This document shows positions 1,403-22,023 of a stretch of 22,023 bases of DNA, piece after piece. Under the pieces are notes generated by a model that made no database searches, was not told the origin of the DNA, and was given only the letters and a program-made list of their open reading frames with translations. Origin of the DNA: a virus; the UHGV virus genome UHGV-0871375. One strand, 5' to 3'. Every line of letters starts with the position of its first letter. Within the stretch, counting starts at the first letter, position 1. The position numbers and the translations under genes were made by a program.

Positions 1403-2453
1403 GCGCCGGGATTTACCCCCTAACCTTTATATAAGAAACAATGGATATTACTGCTACAGGGACCCAAGGACGGGTAAAGAGTTCGGATTAGGCAGAGACA
1501 GGAGGATAGCAATTACTGAAACAATACAGGCCAATATTGAGTTACTCTCAGACAGCGGACGCAAATCACTGATAGACAGAATTAAAGGCGGTGACGCAAT
1601 CACTCTTCATGTGTGGCTTGACCGATATGAAAGAATCCTCACCGAAAGGGGGATCAGGCCGAAAACTCTACTCGACTACGCCAGCAAAATCAGGGCAATC
1701 CGAAGAAAATTGCCGGACAAACCGCTCACTGACATATCAACGAAAGAAGTGGCAGCAATGCTAAACACCTACGTAGCAGAAGGTAAAGCAGCTTCCGCAA
1801 AATTAATCAGGTCAACCCTTGTTGACGTTTTTCGTGAAGCAATAGCCGAGGGGCATGTGGCAACGAATCCGGTAACAGCAACCCGTACAGCAAAGTCAGA
1901 AGTAAGGCGCTCAAGGCTGACAGCTAATGAGTATGTCGAGATTTACCATGCAGCCGAACCTCTCCCTATCTGGCTAAGGCTGGCGATGGATTTGGCCGTC
2001 GTTACAGGGCAGAGAGTCGGCGATTTGTGCAGAATGAAATGGTCAGACATAAACGACAACCATCTTCACATTGAACAGAGTAAAACAGGGGCTAAACTCG
2101 CCATTCCGCTAACGCTAACGATTGACGCGCTCAATATCTCATTGGCTGATACACTACAGAAATGCAGGGAGGCCAGCAGCAGTGAAACTATAATCGCATC
2201 AAAGCATCACGATCCGCTTTCCCCGAAAACAGTATCAAAGTATTTTACAAAGGCGAGAAATGCATCTGGACTCTCATTTGATGGAAACCCGCCAACATTC
2301 CATGAACTGCGTAGCCTGTCAGCGAGGCTATACCGGAACCAGATTGGCGATAAGTTTGCTCAACGTCTTCTCGGGCATAAATCAGATTCAATGGCGGCGC
2401 GGTATAGGGACAGCCGTGGACGGGAATGGGACAAAATTGAAATCGACAAATGA
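1380..2453 (+). CDS. int: tyrosine integrase, lambda Int family (357 aa)
   Basis: The first ~47 aa (arm-binding domain) match lambda Int as recalled. Catalytic residues are present in lambda-like context (VTGQRVGDL, EQSKTG, HELRSL, LLGHKS, ARYRD). Residues ~55-170 (core-binding domain) are clearly diverged from lambda. Confidence 0.95.
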   Translation: MGRRRSHERRDLPPNLYIRNNGYYCYRDPRTGKEFGLGRDRRIAITETIQANIELLSDSGRKSLIDRIKGGDAITLHVWLDRYERILTERGIRPKTLLDYASKIRAIRRKLPDKPLTDISTKEVAAMLNTYVAEGKAASAKLIRSTLVDVFREAIAEGHVATNPVTATRTAKSEVRRSRLTANEYVEIYHAAEPLPIWLRLAMDLAVVTGQRVGDLCRMKWSDINDNHLHIEQSKTGAKLAIPLTLTIDALNISLADTLQKCREASSSETIIASKHHDPLSPKTVSKYFTKARNASGLSFDGNPPTFHELRSLSARLYRNQIGDKFAQRLLGHKSDSMAARYRDSRGREWDKIEIDK

Positions 2454-2680
2454 TTTTATTTTGACTAATAATGACCTGCCCACATTAATTCATTGATAAT
2501 AAAAGAGATTTTAAATATACAACTTATTCACCTAAAGGGTGATAAAATCATACAAATCACCTAAAAATCATATAGTTGCATGCATTAGTGGTTAAATAAC
2601 AGACTACAAAATGCTACAAAACACAACATATCCAGTCACTATGAATCAACCACTTAGATGGTATTAGTGACCTGTAACAG
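2454..2680. other. attP-like attachment region with lambda-type arm sites; core not identified
   Basis: 2600-2680 is close to the reverse complement of the lambda attP P arm, including arm-type sites CAGTCACTAT (2631-2640) and TTAGTGACCT (2664-2673). A P'-arm-like site with one change (ATAATGACCT) lies at ~2472-2481. The lambda core GCTTTTTTATACTAA is absent; a CAACTTATT core-type-like motif sits at 2520-2528. Confidence 0.55.
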
Positions 2681-2684
2681 AGCA

Positions 2685-2726
2685 TTAGCGCAAGGTGATT
2701 TTTTGTCTTCTTGCGCTAATTTTTTG
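2685..2726 (+). terminator. sib/tI-like hairpin terminator downstream of int and attP
   Basis: ttagcgcaag ... cttgcgctaa inverted repeat followed by TTTTTT; matches my memory of the lambda sib/tI retroregulation element and lies in the same relative position. Confidence 0.6.
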
Positions 2727-3020
2727 TCAACACACTGGGTTGGCTTAATTTACAACCATGCTCAGTATCTCGATAAGCGCAGAGAAATGATGCAATGGTG
2801 GGCGGACTGGCTTGATGAAAAGGTGGAGTGATCCACCTTAACTATCGAATGACACAAATCCTTGCAATCCAGTGCAAAGCTTTGTGTACCTTAGTTTTGT
2901 CTCATAGGTAATTCTGCTTTAACTGCGATGCAGGAATCTGTCACCAGACGCACGTCTCGTTGTTTTATGGTTTTCCGTTCATGATTAATATGTTAGCTTG
3001 TCAAAGTTTGTGTTTAAGAT

Positions 3021-3691
3021 ATGGTGATTGATGCAATGTTAAGCGTTCAGATGACTCCACAAGCAAAAGTTAGCTTCGAGGAGCAATGTTTTTTTCATGC
3101 TTCAGGTCTTGTTGTTGCCCCAATAAATGTTGGAGCATTCTCCTACTTTGGCGCTAATTGTATGCTCGGCGGCTTTACGATGGGTAGATTTTGTTCAGTT
3201 GCTCCAGGAGTAAAAATTGGCCTTGGCGAGCATGAAACTGGGTATTTTTCTACGCATCCTTTTTCTTTGGCTCAAAAAATGGTTTTAAAATCCCTGATGG
3301 TATAGGAATGCAACGCGACCTCTCTCAACAGAAGCATGGTATACCAAGAATTGGTCATGACGTATGGATAGGTGCAAATGCGGTTATCAGGCGAGGTATA
3401 ACTATTGGTACTGGCGCTGTTATTGCTGCTGGCGCTATTGTCACCAAAAATGTCGAGCCATATTCAATCGTAGGTGGCGTTTCTGCAAAACACCTAGGGT
3501 ACAGATTTGAGGAATCAATCATCAAAGAGTTACTGGATAGCCAATGGTGGGAATATGATTTAAGCTCATTTATTGGGATTGATACAAGGACACCGACTAC
3601 TTTTTTAGAGCAGTTTAATGCTATAAAAGATAAAAAGAAGGCATCTTATAAGAGATTTACAATTCTTCCATCCGGTGAAATTGTTGAATAG
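3021..3691 (+). pseudogene. hexapeptide-repeat (left-handed beta-helix) acetyltransferase, XAT/CatB-Vat-like, split by a frameshift
   Basis: ORF 3021..3305 carries N-terminal motifs (SFEEQ..., GRFCSVAPG, STHPFSL) and ORF 3308..3691 in another frame carries the hexapeptide core ([13 protein letters not shown]...[12 protein letters not shown]...PYSIVGG) and a C-terminal WW motif (LLDSQWWEY). The two frames join into one ~215-aa protein (...HPFS[L/F][11 protein letters not shown]...) if one nucleotide is added in the T-rich stretch at ~3263-3269. Confidence 0.6.
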
Positions 3692-3712
3692 CGCATCCCT
3701 GCGCTATATTTT
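3690..3712. terminator. shared hairpin between the convergent acetyltransferase and tailspike genes
   Basis: agcgca-tccc-tgcgct perfect 6-bp stem at 3690-3705 lies in the 19-bp gap between the two stop codons, followed by ATATTTTA on the plus strand. Confidence 0.4.
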
Positions 3713-18186: not shown

Positions 18187-19602
18187 TCAACCTACACCAC
18201 AAGGAATTGAGTAACTGGAATAGTCGGGTTGCGCAGCCGACTCCGGGCAATGCATACACATCATCAGCGCATCAGCCAGGTTAGGAGATGGAATACCGAG
18301 CTTCTGCTTCATTTCGACCTTAGTCATTAGCTCCAGCTTCCCGTTTTTATTGAATTTGCGCTGAATCTGCGTCAGTTCTGCAAACAGCTTCTCCAGCATA
18401 TTCTCGCCTATCGCTTCTTTATCGAAACTCAGCATGTCGTCGGGAGCTGCATACTCACCGTGGACAACCGCCCGATATGTCAGATACAGCCTGTCAGCCA
18501 GCGCGTAATAGAATTGCGCTCGCTTATTGCGGAATACATCGCCAATAGTGCGAACGTTGTCTCCCTGCACGACTTCATCAGCCCATGCTCCGGCCTGATA
18601 AGGCGCATCTTCATCGAATGGCGATTCGCTGCCCTTGAACATCGTGGCGGTAATTTTCTTGCCGGAGAATGCTTCCGTTGTCTGTCTGCGTAGCCCTGCA
18701 CCGACACCATCGCCATCCCACAGGTAATGGTCAGCGCCGTCTTCAATCGCCAGCGAAGTAGCCCAGTCAGCACCCTCGTTGATGTCCATCAGCAGACCTT
18801 CGGCAATGCGCTTAACTACCGAACCGTGGCGCGATGCATAACCTTTAGCATCCGGTCCTGTATCTGACGGGTCATGCGCAGAGACAACAGCGCCTTTCGC
18901 CTTCCATCCGAGTTTCTTGTGCGCATCGGTTGCGGCTTCAAGCCATTCACATTTGATAATTGCCATATCACTTGCGCTCACTGGCTCACCAAGCCAGATG
19001 TGACGATACAGTGTCGGATTTCTGCGTTTGCACTCTTCCATCTCCAGACGGAGAACTTCAGGAAAGTGCGGGTTGTCGGTGTAGTTCACCGTCAGTAGGC
19101 AAATATCATCGGGAGGATTTACGACGAATCGCTGATAGGTATCGTCGAGGATGTTCTTCGGGTTAAAGCTCACCCATATTTCGGAAAACGGCTTGCGGAT
19201 GGTTGGTATCAGGATATCCCATGATTCCTTCGTTACCGCTTCCGCTTCTTCCACCCAGCAGATATCAATGCCTTCGAGCGATTTAATCTTCGTCGGGTTG
19301 TTTTTGATGCCGTAGAACATGAATTCAGCATTCGTTCCGAGATGACGAATCATGGAACGCTGAATTTCAAACTCAGCCGAATACCCTTCCCGCTCGATGG
19401 TGTCTTCAAGCAACCGGATTACCGAATCACTGATACTGTTTTGCAGCTCGCGAGCGCAGAGAATACGCACCGGCTGCCGACGCGCCGCTTCAACAAGCAG
19501 CCTGGCAATTGCCCATGACTTACCGCTACCTCGACCGCCTTTGGCGACTTTGTAGCGATGCGCCTCAATGAACGGTTCAAAGATAGGATTAATCGAGGTC
19601 AT
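18187..19602 (-). CDS. terminase large subunit, 471 aa
   Basis: Walker A (KVAKGGRGSGKSWAIARLL) near the N-terminus; Sf6 gp2-like length; ATGA overlap with the small-subunit gene. Confidence 0.95.
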   Translation of the reverse strand: MTSINPIFEPFIEAHRYKVAKGGRGSGKSWAIARLLVEAARRQPVRILCARELQNSISDSVIRLLEDTIEREGYSAEFEIQRSMIRHLGTNAEFMFYGIKNNPTKIKSLEGIDICWVEEAEAVTKESWDILIPTIRKPFSEIWVSFNPKNILDDTYQRFVVNPPDDICLLTVNYTDNPHFPEVLRLEMEECKRRNPTLYRHIWLGEPVSASDMAIIKCEWLEAATDAHKKLGWKAKGAVVSAHDPSDTGPDAKGYASRHGSVVKRIAEGLLMDINEGADWATSLAIEDGADHYLWDGDGVGAGLRRQTTEAFSGKKITATMFKGSESPFDEDAPYQAGAWADEVVQGDNVRTIGDVFRNKRAQFYYALADRLYLTYRAVVHGEYAAPDDMLSFDKEAIGENMLEKLFAELTQIQRKFNKNGKLELMTKVEMKQKLGIPSPNLADALMMCMHCPESAAQPDYSSYSIPCGVG

Positions 19603-20024
19603 TTTCCGAACAGAGTGCTCATCGGTGATGTTTCAATCTGAATTGCGCCGCCGTCCTTACCGACAAGCTCGTTAGTTACCTTGTCGCCATACTTACGGGG
19701 ATTCATTCTGGCCAGCGCCCATTTGCGGGTATCAACGCGAAGTCTTGCCTTTGCCACCTCAGCAGCATCTGGAATCGCATTGTCAGCAATTTCGAATATC
19801 TCTTCGAAAATAGAATCAGCTCGCGCCTCAGTTGCCTTCGCGTACTTGTCTCTAAATTCGTCATGCTCTGACAGCCAGCGAAATACAGTAGCCTTTGCTG
19901 GCATGCCGGGGCGCTTGCAAACCTTAACCAGACTTTCCCCGGAGGCAAGCAGCGCACAGATATCATCAGCCACCTCCGGCAGGTAATCCGAAGGGCGACC
20001 GACATTCTTTTTCTCAGTCGCCAT
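19599..20024 (-). CDS. terminase small subunit, Sf6 gp1-like, 141 aa
   Basis: Size and position directly upstream of TerL; sequence recalled as similar to the Sf6 small terminase (MAT...GRPSDY...CKRPGMP...). Confidence 0.85.
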   Translation of the reverse strand: MATEKKNVGRPSDYLPEVADDICALLASGESLVKVCKRPGMPAKATVFRWLSEHDEFRDKYAKATEARADSIFEEIFEIADNAIPDAAEVAKARLRVDTRKWALARMNPRKYGDKVTNELVGKDGGAIQIETSPMSTLFGK

Positions 20025-20103
20025 ATTGATTATTTCCCTTCTGCTTGCTTATCCCATTCATCGCGGAATTTGGATGGGTTGTCGAAACCTTGAGTTGCCA
20101 TGT

Positions 20104-20346
20104 TTATGCTCCGGTAGTGAACAGGTCTAACGCTTCCTTCGATTTACGCACCGCTTCAAATGTGCGGATCGTGATATCTGAATTAGCTCCGCCTGACTGG
20201 AAGTGAATTTTGAATAACTCAAGCTTCAGCTCGTCAGTGCCAATGAACTGAAATGCTTCTTCTGCGGCTGCGTTCTGGTTCATGACCAGTTTGTAAATCT
20301 CTAACTGGAATTTCTGTTCTTCAGTCATGGGAATAATCTCTGCCAT
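20104..20346 (-). CDS. hypothetical 80-aa protein upstream of terminase (P22 orf80 position)
   Basis: Clean ORF in late-operon orientation between a terminator and the TerS gene. Confidence 0.55.
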   Translation of the reverse strand: MAEIIPMTEEQKFQLEIYKLVMNQNAAAEEAFQFIGTDELKLELFKIHFQSGGANSDITIRTFEAVRKSKEALDLFTTGA

Positions 20347-20451
20347 TGTTGGCTCCGTTTATCCGTTAAAAGGGATATCAGTTAAGTTATCCCGTGTAGG
20401 GTATAAGCCATTATCAAAGCCACTCTGTAGGGAATGGCTTTTGTGATGGCA

Positions 20452-20475
20452 ATAAAAAAGGCCGCCTGAGCGACC
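20452..20475 (-). terminator. intrinsic terminator on the minus strand
   Basis: Minus-strand RNA folds GGUCGC-ucag-GCGGCC (one G-U pair) followed by UUUUUUAUU; 10 nt downstream of the stop of the 20486..20656 ORF. Confidence 0.45.
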
Positions 20476-20485
20476 TGTTAGTTGT

Positions 20486-20656
20486 TCACAACTTCCATTG
20501 AAGGTCCAGCATGTCGAAAAATGATCCGCATTTAGGGGGATTTTCCATTCTTGCCCTCTCTTCAGCCGCTTTGTAATAAGCCATTGGCCTTTTCACACCA
20601 TCAGCACCAGTGATGTATTCAACGCCTTCCTTCGGATCTTTGTTTACTGAAACCAT
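20486..20656 (-). CDS. small hypothetical protein (56 aa)
   Basis: ATG at 20656 with GGAAGAGG RBS; the ORF track's start at 20671 is a GTG codon. Followed by a terminator. Confidence 0.45.
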   Translation of the reverse strand: MVSVNKDPKEGVEYITGADGVKRPMAYYKAAEERARMENPPKCGSFFDMLDLQWKL

Positions 20657-20837
20657 CGCAACCTCTTCCACTTGTTCATCATCGATTCAGCGGATGTCTT
20701 TCCATCAGTCCGCCACCACAAAGAATCTTTTTTGCCATAAGGCTGGAGGTTCATCTTTCAGTGGCTGCCAGTGTTATTTCCCCACTTACTGGCTTGGGTT
20801 GCTTCGTGGTACTGCTGTTAATTAGTGAGTCCGGGGA

Positions 20838-21323
20838 TTATTTCAGTTCGTTACCAGGCATTTCTTTTAGCTCTTTCAAATGACAACGATTGAGACTAAA
20901 CCACTCCCCGTGCGACCTATAGTTGTAATATTTTTGGTGCAATTTGGTTTCAAGCTCTCTATCGGCCGGAATCTTTGCAATTAGATTTAGCTTCCCACCA
21001 CTCATGCGAGATATCTCTGAAATTCGTTTATTACCCCTGCGACTAAACCCTATTTTTGTTAGCCCACTATCTTCAGCATGCAGAACGTACACATATGATT
21101 TTTGCGAAGCACTGGGTGCGACTTTGTTGTAATTAATCATGTCAAACATGAAGCCTTGCTTTAGCAAAGTTTCAAAAAAGATAGAATTAACACACCCATT
21201 CCTTCTCAGATCTGCACTTAGCTTGTCAATTTCCTCTATGATGTCGCCAGACCCCTTTCCACTTATAAGAAAATCTTGGTACATGCGACCAATTCTTGAG
21301 GTAATTTCAACAAAGTTATTCAT
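20838..21323 (-). CDS. T5orf172-domain (GIY-YIG superfamily-like) protein with unknown N-terminal domain, 161 aa
   Basis: C-terminal half SYVYVLHAEDSGLTKIGFSRRGNKRISEI...KLHQKYYNYRSHGEWFSL fits the T5orf172 pattern (YVYVL...KIG...R...E..LH..F...GEWF). Gene is visibly AT-richer than its neighbours. Confidence 0.8.
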   Translation of the reverse strand: MNNFVEITSRIGRMYQDFLISGKGSGDIIEEIDKLSADLRRNGCVNSIFFETLLKQGFMFDMINYNKVAPSASQKSYVYVLHAEDSGLTKIGFSRRGNKRISEISRMSGGKLNLIAKIPADRELETKLHQKYYNYRSHGEWFSLNRCHLKELKEMPGNELK

Positions 21324-21468
21324 AGCGTTTACCTTTTAGAAAGATGAGCCTGTTCGCACAGAAAAGCCGTCCCCGAGATGGTCGCCACCATATACGGCAA
21401 TTCTCAGGCTCAGCTTTCTGAAAGACTCGGGGTTTATATGCGCTGCGATGCGCGTTTACTGCGGACAC

Positions 21469-21493
21469 AAAAAAGCCCCGCGAATGCGAGGCT
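21469..21493 (-). terminator. intrinsic terminator on the minus strand, downstream of Rz
   Basis: Minus-strand RNA folds AGCCUCGC-auuc-GCGGGGCU (8 bp, one G-U pair) followed by UUUUUUGUGU. The plus strand has a C-A mismatch and no T-run. Confidence 0.55.
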
Positions 21494-21666
21494 AAATCCT
21501 GGTGTTTGTGATGACTGGCTCTTATCTCAACGCAGCCCCTTACTGCGCGCCAGATGCTCAATATCAAGCATCAGCAATGAGATGTTTAATCTGGATTCAC
21601 TCCAGAAGTGAGCACCACCCTGTCTACAGAGCCAGATGTGAAGGATGATGAGTAAAATTATCGCTA

Positions 21667-22023
21667 TCATCGAAGGCATTGCGTCCTGATGTATTCCTGC
21701 AGGTAGTTAACCTGCGCGGTTATCCTGTCTATTCCACTTCGGAGACGGTAATAATTGAGTTCAGCATCTGCTGTAAGTCTTGGGCTTTCTCCATCGCCCA
21801 TGCTGCTGGCTCCGGTCGTTGACTTTGCACAGGTGGCGGCGACTTGCAGGCGCTTACGACCAGCAGAAACATCAGCACGGAGACTTTCGATAGTCGCGTT
21901 AGCATCAGCAAGCTCCTTTGTGTATCTGGCGTCGAGTTCTGCTACATCACGTTGACGCTTCTGCATGTCAGCGATGATGGATGCGGCTTTGTCGCGCTGC
22001 TCTTTGTAGGCGATGGCGTTATC
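21667..22023 (-). CDS. Rz: Rz i-spanin, 5' end beyond the window
   Basis: MQKRQRDVAELDARYTKELADA...EYIRTQC matches lambda Rz from about residue 54 onward; the frame stays open to the window edge, so the true start is outside. Confidence 0.85.
   Translation of the reverse strand, partial: DNAIAYKEQRDKAASIIADMQKRQRDVAELDARYTKELADANATIESLRADVSAGRKRLQVAATCAKSTTGASSMGDGESPRLTADAELNYYRLRSGIDRITAQVNYLQEYIRTQCLR
21729..21911 (-). CDS. Rz1: Rz1 o-spanin lipoprotein, embedded in Rz in the +1 frame
   Basis: 60-aa ORF entirely inside Rz; signal peptide with lipobox (LLVVSAC) followed by a proline-rich mature part, the classic embedded Rz1 arrangement. Confidence 0.8.
   Translation of the reverse strand: MLMLTRLSKVSVLMFLLVVSACKSPPPVQSQRPEPAAWAMEKAQDLQQMLNSIITVSEVE

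What the first reader, a model, noticed from the sequence alone, without database searches (positions are those of the whole stretch)
20486..21493. Terminator-bracketed AT-rich moron (T5orf172-domain protein plus small ORF) between lysis and packaging genes
Between Rz/Rz1 and the terminase genes sits a cassette with a strong minus-strand terminator upstream (21469-21493), a 161-aa protein with an unrecognised N-domain fused to a T5orf172/GIY-YIG-like C-domain, a 56-aa ORF, and a second terminator (20452-20475). The large gene is markedly AT-richer than the flanking late genes, the signature of a horizontally acquired moron. This locus is a known accessory hotspot in lambdoid and P22-like phages, and T5orf172 proteins are poorly characterised. 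It is the best candidate here for an undescribed exclusion, defence or anti-defence function.
Basis: partly seen in the sequence, partly recalled or inferred. Interest (0 to 1): 0.7.

Follow-up and report, generated by a model that had tools for sequence, protein, structure and literature searches.

The report
Phage nuclease gene in swap-slot
Between the lysis and DNA-packaging genes of this P22-like phage sits an optional, AT-rich gene for a small GIY-YIG (T5orf172-type) nuclease; the gene is already catalogued, its function is untested, and it occupies a well-known interchangeable slot rather than forming a self-contained new cassette.

Summary
The described features are all present: two minus-strand intrinsic terminators, a 161-aa protein with a T5orf172/MUG113 (GIY-YIG) C-domain, a 56-aa ORF, and low GC (0.389 against about 0.51 for the terminase genes).

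The gene is not new. It is 98.8% identical to Salmonella phage epsilon34 gp68 / g341c gp64, annotated "GIY-YIG nuclease family protein". It occurs in 58 of 5426 complete E. coli genomes, and it lay after Rz in every locus inspected.

The region is not one terminator-bracketed moron. It consists of two adjacent swap-slots that assort independently.
- Slot 1 holds T5orf172 here. In relatives it holds Rha, KilA-N or a Tad2-like protein, or is empty.
- Slot 2 holds the 56-aa ORF plus terminator here.
- The same T5orf172 gene is found with five different slot-2 states.

No sigma-70 promoter-like site was found. The 150-nt leader up to the ATG is shared with Rha and KilA-N genes in 147 phage records.

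The most likely reading is a late-operon, read-through-expressed, HEG-like nuclease gene that is exchanged through its conserved flanks. Its N-domain is an acidic three-helix bundle, not a recognisable DNA-binding domain.

Verdict: a new member of a known kind, of modest interest.

The parts
21667..21966 (-). 3' part of Rz (i-spanin), cut by the window end; Rz1 is embedded at 21911-21729
   Evidence: Pfam Phage_lysis E = 5e-35 and phrog_13. The Rz1 ORF has a lipobox-like LVVSAC sequence.
21527..21679 (-). 50-aa ORF, homologue of Sf6 gp65 / epsilon34 gp67; overlaps the Rz stop
   Evidence: Annotated in epsilon34, Sf6, Huey and E. coli prophages. Nucleotide identity 97-99%. No family hit.
21464..21493 (-). 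Intrinsic terminator 1, distal to the lysis genes
   Evidence: Folds at -17 kcal/mol, z = -3.3. Annotated as a terminator in epsilon34; terminators are annotated at the same position in HK106 and HK639. Stem changes are compensatory across phages.
21324..21463 (-). Conserved non-coding leader of slot 1, running up to the start codon. It contains a long predicted hairpin whose inner stem (GCCGT...ACGGC) is followed by UUUUCU and whose outer stem pairs with the AAAGG ribosome-binding region.
   Evidence: Shared at 84-94% identity with HK620 (KilA-N), Gally (Rha) and HK106 (a 32%-identical T5orf172), and at 66% with L011. Found in 147 phage records. Indels of 1-2 nt rule out coding. RNAalifold gives 40 pairs, 10 of which have double changes in at least one sequence. 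No Rfam match.
20838..21323 (-). Slot-1 gene: a 161-aa protein with an N-terminal three-helix bundle (residues 1-70, pI 5.2) and a C-terminal T5orf172/MUG113 GIY-YIG domain (residues 71-161, pI 9.7)
   Evidence: Pfam and PHROG hits. AlphaFold model pLDDT 88.7. BFVD fold matches to T5orf172, MUG113, GIY-YIG and BRO proteins. Invariant residues Y79, K90, I91, G92, R100, E125, L128, H129, E140, W141, F142. 98.8% identical to epsilon34 gp68.
20692..20827 (-). Boundary segment D, conserved in almost all relatives. It carries a ribosome-binding site plus an ATG (20754) that opens a 36-aa ORF (20754-20644), annotated in epsilon34 as similar to the N-terminus of ST64T orf118.
   Evidence: 95-99% identity to HK620, Sf6, Huey, Emek, BIS08P22, Dewey, HK106, Gally and L013. 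epsilon34 misc_feature.
20486..20656 (-). Slot-2 gene: a 56-aa ORF (alternative GTG start at 20671)
   Evidence: phrog_5425, E = 1e-40. Homologues of 54-62 aa down to 61% identity, including Yersinia, lying in the same lysis-terminase interval. 100% identical in phage Gally, downstream of Rha.
20452..20476 (-). Intrinsic terminator 2, at the end of the slot-2 module
   Evidence: Folds at -11.6 kcal/mol, z = -2.8. Homology to BIS08P22 resumes at 20476, and to Sf6, Huey and Emek at 20447-20451.
20104..20346 (-). DUF2560 gene (P22 orf80 / HK620 hkbM / Sf6 gp67), a constant neighbour upstream of TerS
   Evidence: Pfam DUF2560 E = 2.6e-42. Present in all compared loci.
19599..20024 (-). Sf6-type small terminase subunit
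   Evidence: Pfam Sf6_terminase E = 1.3e-44.

Best explanation
The 161-aa gene is a free-standing T5orf172-type GIY-YIG nuclease gene. It is the same gene as epsilon34 gp68 and sits in slot 1 of a two-slot interchangeable region between the lysis and packaging modules of lambdoid phages.

Expression (inferred): it is transcribed as part of the late operon. Q/gp23-antiterminated polymerase reads through terminator 1 and the structured, widely shared leader. It does not have a promoter of its own.

Protein (inferred from conserved residues and fold):
- The basic C-domain binds and cuts or nicks DNA by GIY-YIG chemistry. Y79, R100 and E125/E140 correspond to I-TevI Y6, R27 and E75/N90.
- The acidic three-helix N-domain provides oligomerisation or partner/target selection. 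It is not a classical DNA-binding module.

Biology (inferred): it behaves like a homing-endonuclease-like selfish or competition gene.
- It is active late in infection, or after induction, on the DNA of related co-resident or co-infecting phages.
- It spreads among P22-like and other lambdoid phages by recombination in the conserved flanks (the leader and segment D).

The 56-aa ORF and terminator 2 are an unrelated neighbouring module.
For: Identity:
- Pfam MUG113 and T5orf172 hits are above their cut-offs; phrog_4284 E = 3e-74.
- 98.8% identity to epsilon34, g341c and NM-3 proteins that RefSeq annotates as GIY-YIG nuclease.
- AlphaFold model pLDDT 88.7 with a beta-beta-alpha-beta-alpha C-domain; BFVD matches to GIY-YIG, MUG113, T5orf172 and BRO proteins at E = 1e-6 to 1e-4.

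Catalytic competence:
- Y79, K90, I91, G92, R100, E125, L128, H129, E140, W141 and F142 are invariant in 19 homologues with 24-98% identity to the window protein.
- hhalign places Y79, K90, G92 and R100 on I-TevI Y6, Y17, G19 and R27. The I-TevI sequence was verified against PDB 1mk0/1ln0.
- A T5orf172 protein, ICP1 Odn, is a proven nuclease that is killed by mutating the conserved Glu (PMC8263062).

Selection:
- pN/pS = 0.39 in both domains against the 60% homologue.
- The ORF is intact in the E. coli loci listed (one match covers 90%).

Conserved position across divergence:
- Homologues of 60% identity (L011, a lambdoid phage with a Terminase_2 / Mu_F head module) and 32% identity (HK106, an HK97-like siphovirus) sit in the same place, after Rz plus a terminator.

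HEG-like genomics:
- Sporadic presence.
- Intergenic location next to the terminase genes, as for 35% of surveyed T5orf172 HEG neighbourhoods (PMC10448857).
- A canonical HNH_3+AP2 gene lies just upstream of slot 1 in Dewey.
- Between Salmonella and E. coli phages the gene plus about 105 nt upstream is 99-99.5% identical. The bordering patches carry 9-12 differences in 21432-21510 and 1-6 differences in about 35 nt after the stop codon. DUF2560 is 94.7-96.7% identical.

Late-operon expression:
- No promoter-like site.
- The leader, ribosome-binding site and ATG are shared with Rha and KilA-N genes.
- The P22-type late transcript runs from the lysis genes into the head genes (PMC2629481).
Against: - No nuclease assay exists for this protein or any close relative.
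- Characterised T5orf172 HEGs carry Zn-finger (CapR / DUF723 / DUF4397) or RepA_N DNA-binding domains (PMC10448857). This protein has none. Its N-domain is acidic (pI 5.2) and matches only generic helical bundles, so sequence-specific targeting, a defining requirement for homing, is unexplained.
- The Tyr of the second motif is Lys (K90). The mapping onto I-TevI is statistically weak (hhalign E = 0.047, probability 1%).
- Exchange exactly at the ATG and just after the stop codon is fully explained by ordinary homologous recombination in the conserved flanks. No co-conversion gradient could be demonstrated.
- The consensus promoter scan cannot exclude non-canonical or activator-dependent promoters, so expression in the lysogen remains possible.
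Confidence: 0.5

Rival explanations
1. One reading: an autonomous moron. The gene, with or without the 56-aa ORF, is expressed from the prophage independently of the late operon and protects the lysogen (superinfection exclusion or defence) by cutting incoming DNA.
For: - Low GC and GC3.
- Sporadic distribution.
- Terminator 1 would insulate the gene from upstream transcription.
- Nucleases are common defence effectors.
- A weak domain-level hit to the PADLOC candidate PDC-S57, E = 0.0056.
Against: - No promoter-like site on either strand in 2.1 kb, where 2.8 are expected by chance.
- The leader is the same one used by Rha and KilA-N genes in 147 phages.
- The two ORFs assort independently.
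- No significant PADLOC or NCBIfam defence family match.
- A constitutively expressed nuclease with no partner immunity gene would endanger the host.
Confidence: 0.15
2. A domesticated conflict nuclease acting for the phage, by analogy with ICP1 Odn. It would be expressed late and cleave a satellite, a competing prophage or a host defence element; alternatively it would act as an anti-defence factor.
For: - T5orf172 nucleases have repeatedly been recruited against satellites, including in coliphages (PMC10448857; PMC8263062).
- The same slot carries a Tad2-like (anti-Thoeris family) protein in phage Huey, Pfam E = 1.7e-24.
- The position is conserved over 32-60% protein divergence, which suggests a benefit to the phage rather than pure selfishness.
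Against: - There is no RepA_N or other domain borrowed from a known satellite.
- No target is identifiable.
- The gene is rare: about 1% of E. coli genomes, and about 2% of those carrying the conserved flanks.
Confidence: 0.15
3. A non-catalytic DNA-binding late regulator: a functional analogue of the Rha and KilA-N proteins that otherwise occupy the slot, comparable to the domesticated T5orf172 repressor CapR of PLE.
For: - The gene replaces Rha or KilA-N exactly at a shared ATG behind a shared leader.
- T5orf172 domains occur fused to Bro-N in baculovirus BRO proteins, which appear among the fold matches.
- CapR shows that T5orf172 proteins can act as repressors (PMC10448857).
Against: - All motif residues associated with catalysis are invariant across distant homologues, which would not be expected for a purely binding role.
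- Rha and KilA-N slot proteins share a C-terminal ORF11CD3 domain that is absent here, so there is no evident shared partner interface.
Confidence: 0.15
4. A packaging accessory nuclease that assists the terminase, like the HNH protein gp74 of HK97.
For: - The gene lies close upstream of TerS and TerL.
- There is a precedent: HK97 gp74 (discussed in PMC10448857).
Against: - Most phages with the same Sf6-type or P22-type terminases lack the gene.
- The same gene occurs with two different terminase types.
- HK106 carries both a T5orf172 gene and a gp74-type HNH gene.
- The P22/Sf6 family are headful (pac) packagers and are not known to need such a factor (established knowledge).
Confidence: 0.03

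Closest known systems
Salmonella phage epsilon34 gp68 / g341c gp64 / NM-3 homologue (RefSeq 'GIY-YIG nuclease family protein'; phrog_4284)
   Same: 98.8% amino-acid and 99.4% nucleotide identity. Same position after Rz, gp67 and the terminator, with the same leader.
   Different: Those phages have an empty slot 2: segment D abuts the DUF2560 leader. The window has the 56-aa ORF plus terminator 2 there. epsilon34 (and, by annotation, NM-3) have a different small terminase. The window also has a variant patch at 21432-21468. None of these proteins has been characterised; the epsilon34 paper does not discuss gp68.
Free-standing T5orf172 homing-endonuclease-like genes of phages (ICP1 and others; Barth, Dunham & Seed 2023, PMC10448857)
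   Same: T5orf172 nuclease domain at one terminus; intergenic position next to terminase genes; sporadic occurrence at a boundary of genetic exchange.
   Different: 87% of those proteins carry CapR, DUF723 or DUF4397 Zn-finger DNA-binding domains, often repeated. This one has a single acidic three-helix bundle with only one Cys and no Zn-finger motif. At 161 aa it is much smaller than I-TevI (245 aa, from established knowledge).
ICP1 Odn (gp88), origin-directed T5orf172 nuclease (PMC8263062)
   Same: T5orf172 domain retaining the conserved Arg and Glu; phage-encoded; lies in a variable locus that also carries Rha or Bro-N genes.
   Different: Odn's specificity comes from a RepA_N domain copied from its satellite target. 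No such domain, and no identifiable target, exists here.
I-TevI catalytic domain (GIY-YIG archetype; PDB 1mk0 / 1ln0)
   Same: Motif correspondence Y79 = Y6, G92 = G19, R100 = R27, and a Glu in the helix after strand 3.
   Different: Tyr17 is replaced by Lys90. There is no linker, Zn-finger or helix-turn-helix DNA-binding region. Sequence similarity is not significant on its own (hhalign E = 0.047).
Alternative occupants of the same slot: P22 Rha / HK620 hkbK (KilA-N + ORF11CD3)
   Same: Same leader, ribosome-binding site and ATG context; same position; similar size (165-172 aa).
   Different: Unrelated folds and domains. Rha and KilA-N proteins are DNA-binding proteins, not nucleases.

Membership tests
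GIY-YIG superfamily, T5orf172 (PF10544) / MUG113 (PF13455) branch | Profile match above the curated threshold | tested here: met
   MUG113 scores 46.2 bits (cut-off 22.3) and T5orf172 scores 34.8 bits (cut-off 20), over residues 77-154.
GIY-YIG superfamily, T5orf172 (PF10544) / MUG113 (PF13455) branch | Conserved motif residues: Tyr in strand 1, x-I/V-G in strand 2, Arg in helix 1, Glu in helix 2 | tested here: met
   Y79, K90-I91-G92, R100, E125 and E140 are invariant in 19 homologues. Their mapping onto I-TevI Y6, Y17, G19 and R27 comes from hhalign and is weak. The second-motif Tyr is Lys here.
GIY-YIG superfamily, T5orf172 (PF10544) / MUG113 (PF13455) branch | Alpha/beta fold with a three-stranded sheet flanked by helices | tested here: met
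   The AlphaFold model has E77-83, E89-94, H97-108, E112-119 and H122-131 at pLDDT above 86. There are 70 BFVD matches at E <= 1e-3; the named ones are mostly T5orf172, MUG113, GIY-YIG or BRO proteins. Foldseek against PDB with the two-domain model gave nothing significant.
GIY-YIG superfamily, T5orf172 (PF10544) / MUG113 (PF13455) branch | Metal-dependent endonuclease activity | not testable with these tools
   Requires biochemistry. The only precedent is Odn E180A.
Free-standing homing endonuclease gene (HEG) | Nuclease domain joined to a sequence-specific DNA-binding domain | tested here: inconclusive
Free-standing homing endonuclease gene (HEG) | Sporadic presence or absence at one site in otherwise collinear genomes, inserted between genes | tested here: met
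   58 of 5426 E. coli genomes and 3 phages carry it. The site is empty in Sf6 and 611R6 and holds other genes elsewhere.
Free-standing homing endonuclease gene (HEG) | Cleavage of the HEG-less allele and super-Mendelian inheritance with co-conversion of flanks | not testable with these tools
   Only indirect evidence is available: a high-identity tract at about 21431-20834, flanked by divergent patches. This is equally compatible with ordinary recombination.
Moron (Hendrix / Juhala definition: an independently transcribed insert with its own promoter and terminator) | Own promoter upstream of the gene | tested here: not met
   No sigma-70-like site in 19900-22023 on either strand. The upstream region is a leader shared with other genes. 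Non-canonical promoters are not excluded.
Moron (Hendrix / Juhala definition: an independently transcribed insert with its own promoter and terminator) | Own terminator immediately downstream | tested here: not met
   The next terminator (20476-20452) lies 360 nt downstream, beyond segment D and the 56-aa ORF. It belongs to a module that is absent from epsilon34 and E. coli W, which carry the same gene.
Moron (Hendrix / Juhala definition: an independently transcribed insert with its own promoter and terminator) | Compositional deviation and presence or absence among relatives | tested here: met
   GC 0.389 and GC3 0.389, against 0.51-0.55 for the terminase genes. Distribution as.
Odn-type anti-satellite nuclease | T5orf172 domain fused to a DNA-binding domain homologous to a satellite replication initiator (RepA_N) | tested here: not met
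   No RepA_N or other Pfam domain in residues 1-70. No fold match.
Known anti-phage defence systems (PADLOC-DB 2.0) | Significant match to a system protein model | tested here: not met
   The only hit is PDC-S57 at E = 0.0056 over the nuclease domain. The 56-aa, DUF2560 and gp65-like ORFs gave no hits.

The most novel reading that the evidence does not exclude
The lysis-to-terminase interval of lambdoid phages may be a plug-and-play late-expression dock.
- A conserved, structured leader would control termination and ribosome access for whatever conflict gene is plugged in. It has terminator 1 plus a roughly 95-nt hairpin that hides the ribosome-binding site and ends in a second terminator-like stem, and it is absent from Rfam.
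- The T5orf172 protein, with its unusual acidic helical N-domain, would be a protein-guided anti-satellite or anti-defence nuclease, not a homing enzyme. It would recognise its target through a partner protein rather than through a DNA-binding domain.
Probability: 0.12. Interest if true: 0.6.

Novelty: new member of a known kind. Interest (0 to 1): 0.3.

Why it matters
If the protein is an active nuclease, it adds a minimal architecture (helical bundle plus T5orf172) to the HEG-like nucleases that sit at boundaries of genetic exchange in phages. It would extend that picture from lytic vibriophages to temperate lambdoid phages of Salmonella and E. coli, including ST131 and E. coli W prophages.

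More practically, the analysis shows how this hotspot is built:
- two independently assorting slots;
- framed by a strongly conserved leader and a boundary segment;
- able to carry anti-defence-type cargo (a Tad2-like protein in Huey).

That makes the locus a rational place to mine for accessory genes, and the leader a candidate regulatory RNA. As it stands, the gene itself is a catalogued, uncharacterised family member, and nothing here overturns current understanding.

Tried and rejected
- Foldseek of the whole two-domain model against PDB gave no hit at E <= 0.001.
- hhalign against I-TevI aligned only the first 26 columns, at probability 1%. I use it as a motif map, not as proof.
- I recalled that PLE NixI is a T5orf172 nuclease. 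This was wrong: the paper describes an HNH/N nuclease, so the comparison was dropped.
- Rfam at E <= 1 on 19900-22023 returned only a chance hit (Atu_C8, 20.5 bits against a gathering score of 50) overlapping terminator 2.
- PADLOC and NCBIfam gave nothing significant for any of the four small proteins. The 'anti-silencing Mip' hit for the 56-aa ORF (E = 0.098) was rejected.
- Plus-strand and overlapping ORFs in the region (for example 21139-21339, 20944-21132, 21378-21611, and the 83-aa ORF at 21567-21316) were considered and rejected. They have no family support, and frame-breaking indels occur in the leader alignment.
- The idea that the 56-aa ORF is a partner (immunity or specificity factor) of the nuclease was rejected on co-occurrence. 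It is present in 23 E. coli genomes and the nuclease in 58, with only one partial overlap. It occurs with Rha in Gally.
- The epsilon34 genome paper was read for any statement on gp68; there is none.
Full report
**What the window is.** The window is the late half of a P22-like (Lederbergvirus) genome, read on the minus strand. It carries a tailspike with a P22 head-binding domain, P22-type coat and portal genes, Sf6-type TerL and TerS, and the end of Rz. An integrase and a hexapeptide acetyltransferase fragment lie on the plus strand near the other end. Fifteen public contigs carry the identical protein; the six shown have the window's gene order downstream of it.

**Observation check.**
- Terminator 1 has its stem at 21493-21474 followed by a U-tract (-17 kcal/mol, z = -3.3).
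- Terminator 2 has its stem at 20476-20459 followed by a U-tract (-11.6 kcal/mol, z = -2.8).
- The 161-aa ORF (21323-20838) matches Pfam MUG113 (E = 7e-12) and T5orf172 (E = 2.4e-8) over residues 77-154. Its first ~70 residues have no Pfam hit.
- The 56-aa ORF (20656-20486) belongs to phrog_5425.
- The large gene has GC 0.389 and GC3 0.389. The terminase genes have GC 0.515 and GC3 0.51-0.55. The gene falls in the lowest 8.8% of equal-sized windows.
- Two genes were omitted from the finding: a 50-aa homologue of Sf6 gp65 between Rz and terminator 1, and DUF2560 between terminator 2 and TerS.

**The gene is already catalogued.**
- It is 98.8% identical in protein (99.4% in DNA) to epsilon34 gp68, g341c gp64 and an NM-3 gene. 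RefSeq calls these "GIY-YIG nuclease family protein". The epsilon34 record even annotates the upstream terminator.
- It occurs once each in 58 of 5426 complete E. coli genomes, including E. coli W and ST131 strains. In all five loci inspected it lies after Rz, the gp65-like ORF and the terminator.
- The epsilon34 genome paper does not discuss it.

**Anatomy of the locus.** BLAST of the region against 13 related loci resolves a mosaic.
- Rz, the gp65-like ORF and terminator 1 are shared with Sf6, Huey and epsilon34.
- A roughly 150-nt leader (21463-21324) runs exactly to ATGAA of the slot gene. It is shared with phages whose gene at that ATG is different: HK620 hkbK and Dewey (KilA-N + ORF11CD3), Gally (Rha + ORF11CD3) and HK106 gp64 (a T5orf172 protein only 32% identical).
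- The gene body is specific to epsilon34-type loci.
- Starting 10-20 nt after the stop codon, a 135-nt boundary segment (20827-20692) is 95-99% identical in nearly all relatives, including the siphovirus HK106.
- The 56-aa ORF plus terminator 2 (about 20692-20447) was found, among the compared loci, only in the window and partly in E. coli 13KWH46.
- The DUF2560 leader and gene are again universal.

**Two slots, not one cassette.** The region therefore contains two adjacent slots.
- Slot 1 across relatives holds Rha, KilA-N, a Tad2-like protein (Huey; Pfam Tad2-like E = 1.7e-24), T5orf172, or nothing (Sf6, 611R6). In Dewey an HNH_3+AP2 gene sits just upstream of the leader.
- Slot 2 holds nothing (epsilon34, E. 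coli W, HK620), the 56-aa ORF (the window, Gally), Sf6 gp66 / Gp49 family, DUF551, or other small ORFs.
- The 56-aa module occurs in 23 E. coli genomes. These overlap the 58 T5orf172 genomes only in one partial case. In phage Gally the module is 100% identical and sits downstream of Rha.
- A 61%-identical homologue lies in the same interval of Yersinia P22-like prophages, so it is a real small gene, but an independent one.
- The "terminator-bracketed cassette" is therefore a juxtaposition of separately assorting modules.

**Expression.**
- No sigma-70-like promoter is detected on either strand in 19900-22023, where 2.8 would be expected by chance.
- The leader occurs in 147 phage records: P22-like, HK97-like and Stx-converting phages, and phages listed for Klebsiella, Enterobacter, Hafnia and even Actinobacillus. 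It lies upstream of Rha, KilA-N or T5orf172 genes.
- One- and two-nucleotide indels exclude a coding role for the leader.
- RNAalifold predicts a long hairpin. Its outer stem pairs with the AAAGG ribosome-binding region. Its inner stem (GCCGU...ACGGC) is followed by UUUUCU. Ten of 40 pairs show double changes in at least one sequence. The element is too conserved for a firm covariation test, and most of the changes come from one divergent sequence.
- The element matches nothing in Rfam.
- In P22-type phages the late transcript runs from the lysis genes into the head genes under Q/gp23 antitermination (PMC2629481).
- Taken together, the simplest reading is read-through late expression, not autonomous expression. 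This is an inference; only transcript mapping can settle it.

**The protein.**
- The AlphaFold model, built from 18 homologues, has mean pLDDT 88.7.
- Residues 3-68 form three long helices, an up-down-up bundle. This domain is acidic (pI 5.2), has one Cys and no His.
- A short linker follows, and then a beta-beta-alpha-beta-alpha domain with pI 9.7.
- BFVD matches for the C-domain are T5orf172, MUG113, GIY-YIG and baculovirus BRO proteins.
- Y79, K90, I91, G92, R100, E125, L128, H129, E140, W141 and F142 are invariant in 19 homologues with 24-98% identity to the window protein.
- hhalign, although weak, places Y79, K90, G92 and R100 on I-TevI Y6, Y17, G19 and R27. My recalled I-TevI sequence was verified against PDB 1mk0/1ln0.
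- Both domains are under purifying selection: pN/pS is about 0.39 against the 60% homologue, with synonymous sites saturated.

**Evolutionary pattern.**
- More distant homologues keep the position. A 60% homologue follows Rz in a lambdoid phage with Terminase_2 / Mu_F head genes. The 32% homologue HK106 gp64 follows Rz plus a terminator in an HK97-like phage. The gene is thus an old alternative occupant of this slot, not a one-off insertion.
- Among epsilon34 (Salmonella) and the E. coli prophages, the tract from about 21431 to 20834 differs from the window at only 3-6 positions.
- The bordering patches (21432-21510 and 20833-20802) carry 9-12 and 1-6 differences, and DUF2560 is 94.7-96.7% identical.
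- This indicates recent spread of the gene unit across backgrounds.
- Recombination in the conserved flanks is enough to explain the pattern. Homing is compatible with it but not demonstrated.

**Comparison with the known.**
- T5orf172 is a GIY-YIG subfamily. ICP1 Odn is a proven T5orf172 nuclease, inactivated by E180A (PMC8263062).
- T5orf172 HEG-like genes are enriched next to terminase genes (35% of neighbourhoods) and at boundaries of genetic exchange. 87% of them carry Zn-finger DNA-binding domains, and others carry RepA_N (PMC10448857).
- This protein shares the nuclease domain and the genomic behaviour. It lacks any recognisable DNA-binding module, which is the main obstacle to calling it a homing endonuclease.
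- It fails the promoter and own-terminator criteria of a moron. It matches no PADLOC system.

**Verdict.**
- Best explanation (confidence about 0.5): a late-operon, HEG-like T5orf172 nuclease gene occupying slot 1 of a two-slot exchange region.
- Rivals: a prophage-expressed defence moron (0.15), a domesticated anti-satellite or anti-defence nuclease (0.15), a non-catalytic regulator analogous to Rha or KilA-N (0.15), and a packaging helper (0.03).
- It is a new member of a known kind, with interest about 0.3.
- The more intriguing by-products are the highly conserved structured leader and the finding that the slot can carry a Tad2-like protein.

Noticed in passing
window 21324-21470 (minus strand); A6 alignment; L002, L014, L015, L026-L033: A roughly 150-nt non-coding leader between the post-lysis terminator and the slot-1 start codon. 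It is conserved at 84-95% in 147 phage records of several host genera, upstream of Rha, KilA-N or T5orf172 genes. It is predicted to form a long hairpin that pairs with the ribosome-binding site and contains a second terminator-like stem followed by UUUUCU. It has no Rfam match. It could be a regulatory RNA, an RNase III site, an attenuator, or simply a recombination boundary sequence.
   Followed up: partly
window 20692-20827 (minus strand): A 135-nt boundary segment that starts 10-20 nt after the slot-1 stop codon. It is 95-99% identical in P22-like phages and in the HK97-like HK106, whatever genes flank it. It carries a ribosome-binding site and an ATG (20754) whose ORF continues into different sequences in different phages: 36 aa here, orf53 in Emek, and the 'ST64T orf118 N-terminus' noted in epsilon34.
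   Followed up: partly
L004 (phage Huey) 1256-1756: In phage Huey, slot 1 holds a 166-aa protein with a Tad2-like (Thoeris anti-defence 2) domain, Pfam E = 1.7e-24. The record annotates it as 'anti-CRISPR'. Slot 2 there holds an Sf6 gp66 / N4 Gp49-family protein, also labelled 'anti-CRISPR'.
   Followed up: partly
window 21432-21468: The window differs at the same 9 positions from all five other T5orf172-carrying loci compared. In that patch it partly resembles the HK106 / 2B8 leader variant. This looks like a small recombinant patch just downstream of terminator 1.
   Followed up: partly
window 21527-21679 (minus strand): A 50-aa ORF overlapping the Rz stop codon, homologous to Sf6 gp65 / epsilon34 gp67, with a hydrophobic N-terminus (MPSMIAIILLIILHIWL). 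It is 97-99% conserved at the nucleotide level and has no family assignment.
   Followed up: no
L013 5001-5498 (Logan SRR17171683 contig): A decayed P22-like prophage in which a 165-aa chimeric ORF joins YbcO/Rz-like sequence to the last ~41 codons of the T5orf172 gene, next to an integrase. This is evidence that the gene can be lost by deletion.
   Followed up: no
P0010 (183 aa) and window ORF 21567-21316: One homologue is called with an N-terminal extension (..GRLFCANRLIFLKGK..) that is a translation of the conserved leader. In Chronis, HK639, pPE4 and Tbat2_3 the annotated Rha or KilA-N starts also lie inside the leader. These are probably mis-called start codons.
   Followed up: partly
L034 (phage vB_EcoP-611R6) 1700-2140: A 146-aa gene annotated 'HNH homing endonuclease' sits exactly where the small terminase subunit is expected, directly upstream of TerL. 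It is probably a mis-annotation. The same label appears in 683R2 and phiv205-1.
   Followed up: no
window ~2160-3700: A second low-GC stretch (down to 0.35), from the 3' end of the integrase gene (1380-2453, +) to the tailspike gene. It contains a 127-aa hexapeptide-repeat acetyltransferase ORF (3308-3691, +) and a 94-aa ORF (3021-3305, +). This is probably the attP / O-antigen-conversion region of the phage.
   Followed up: no
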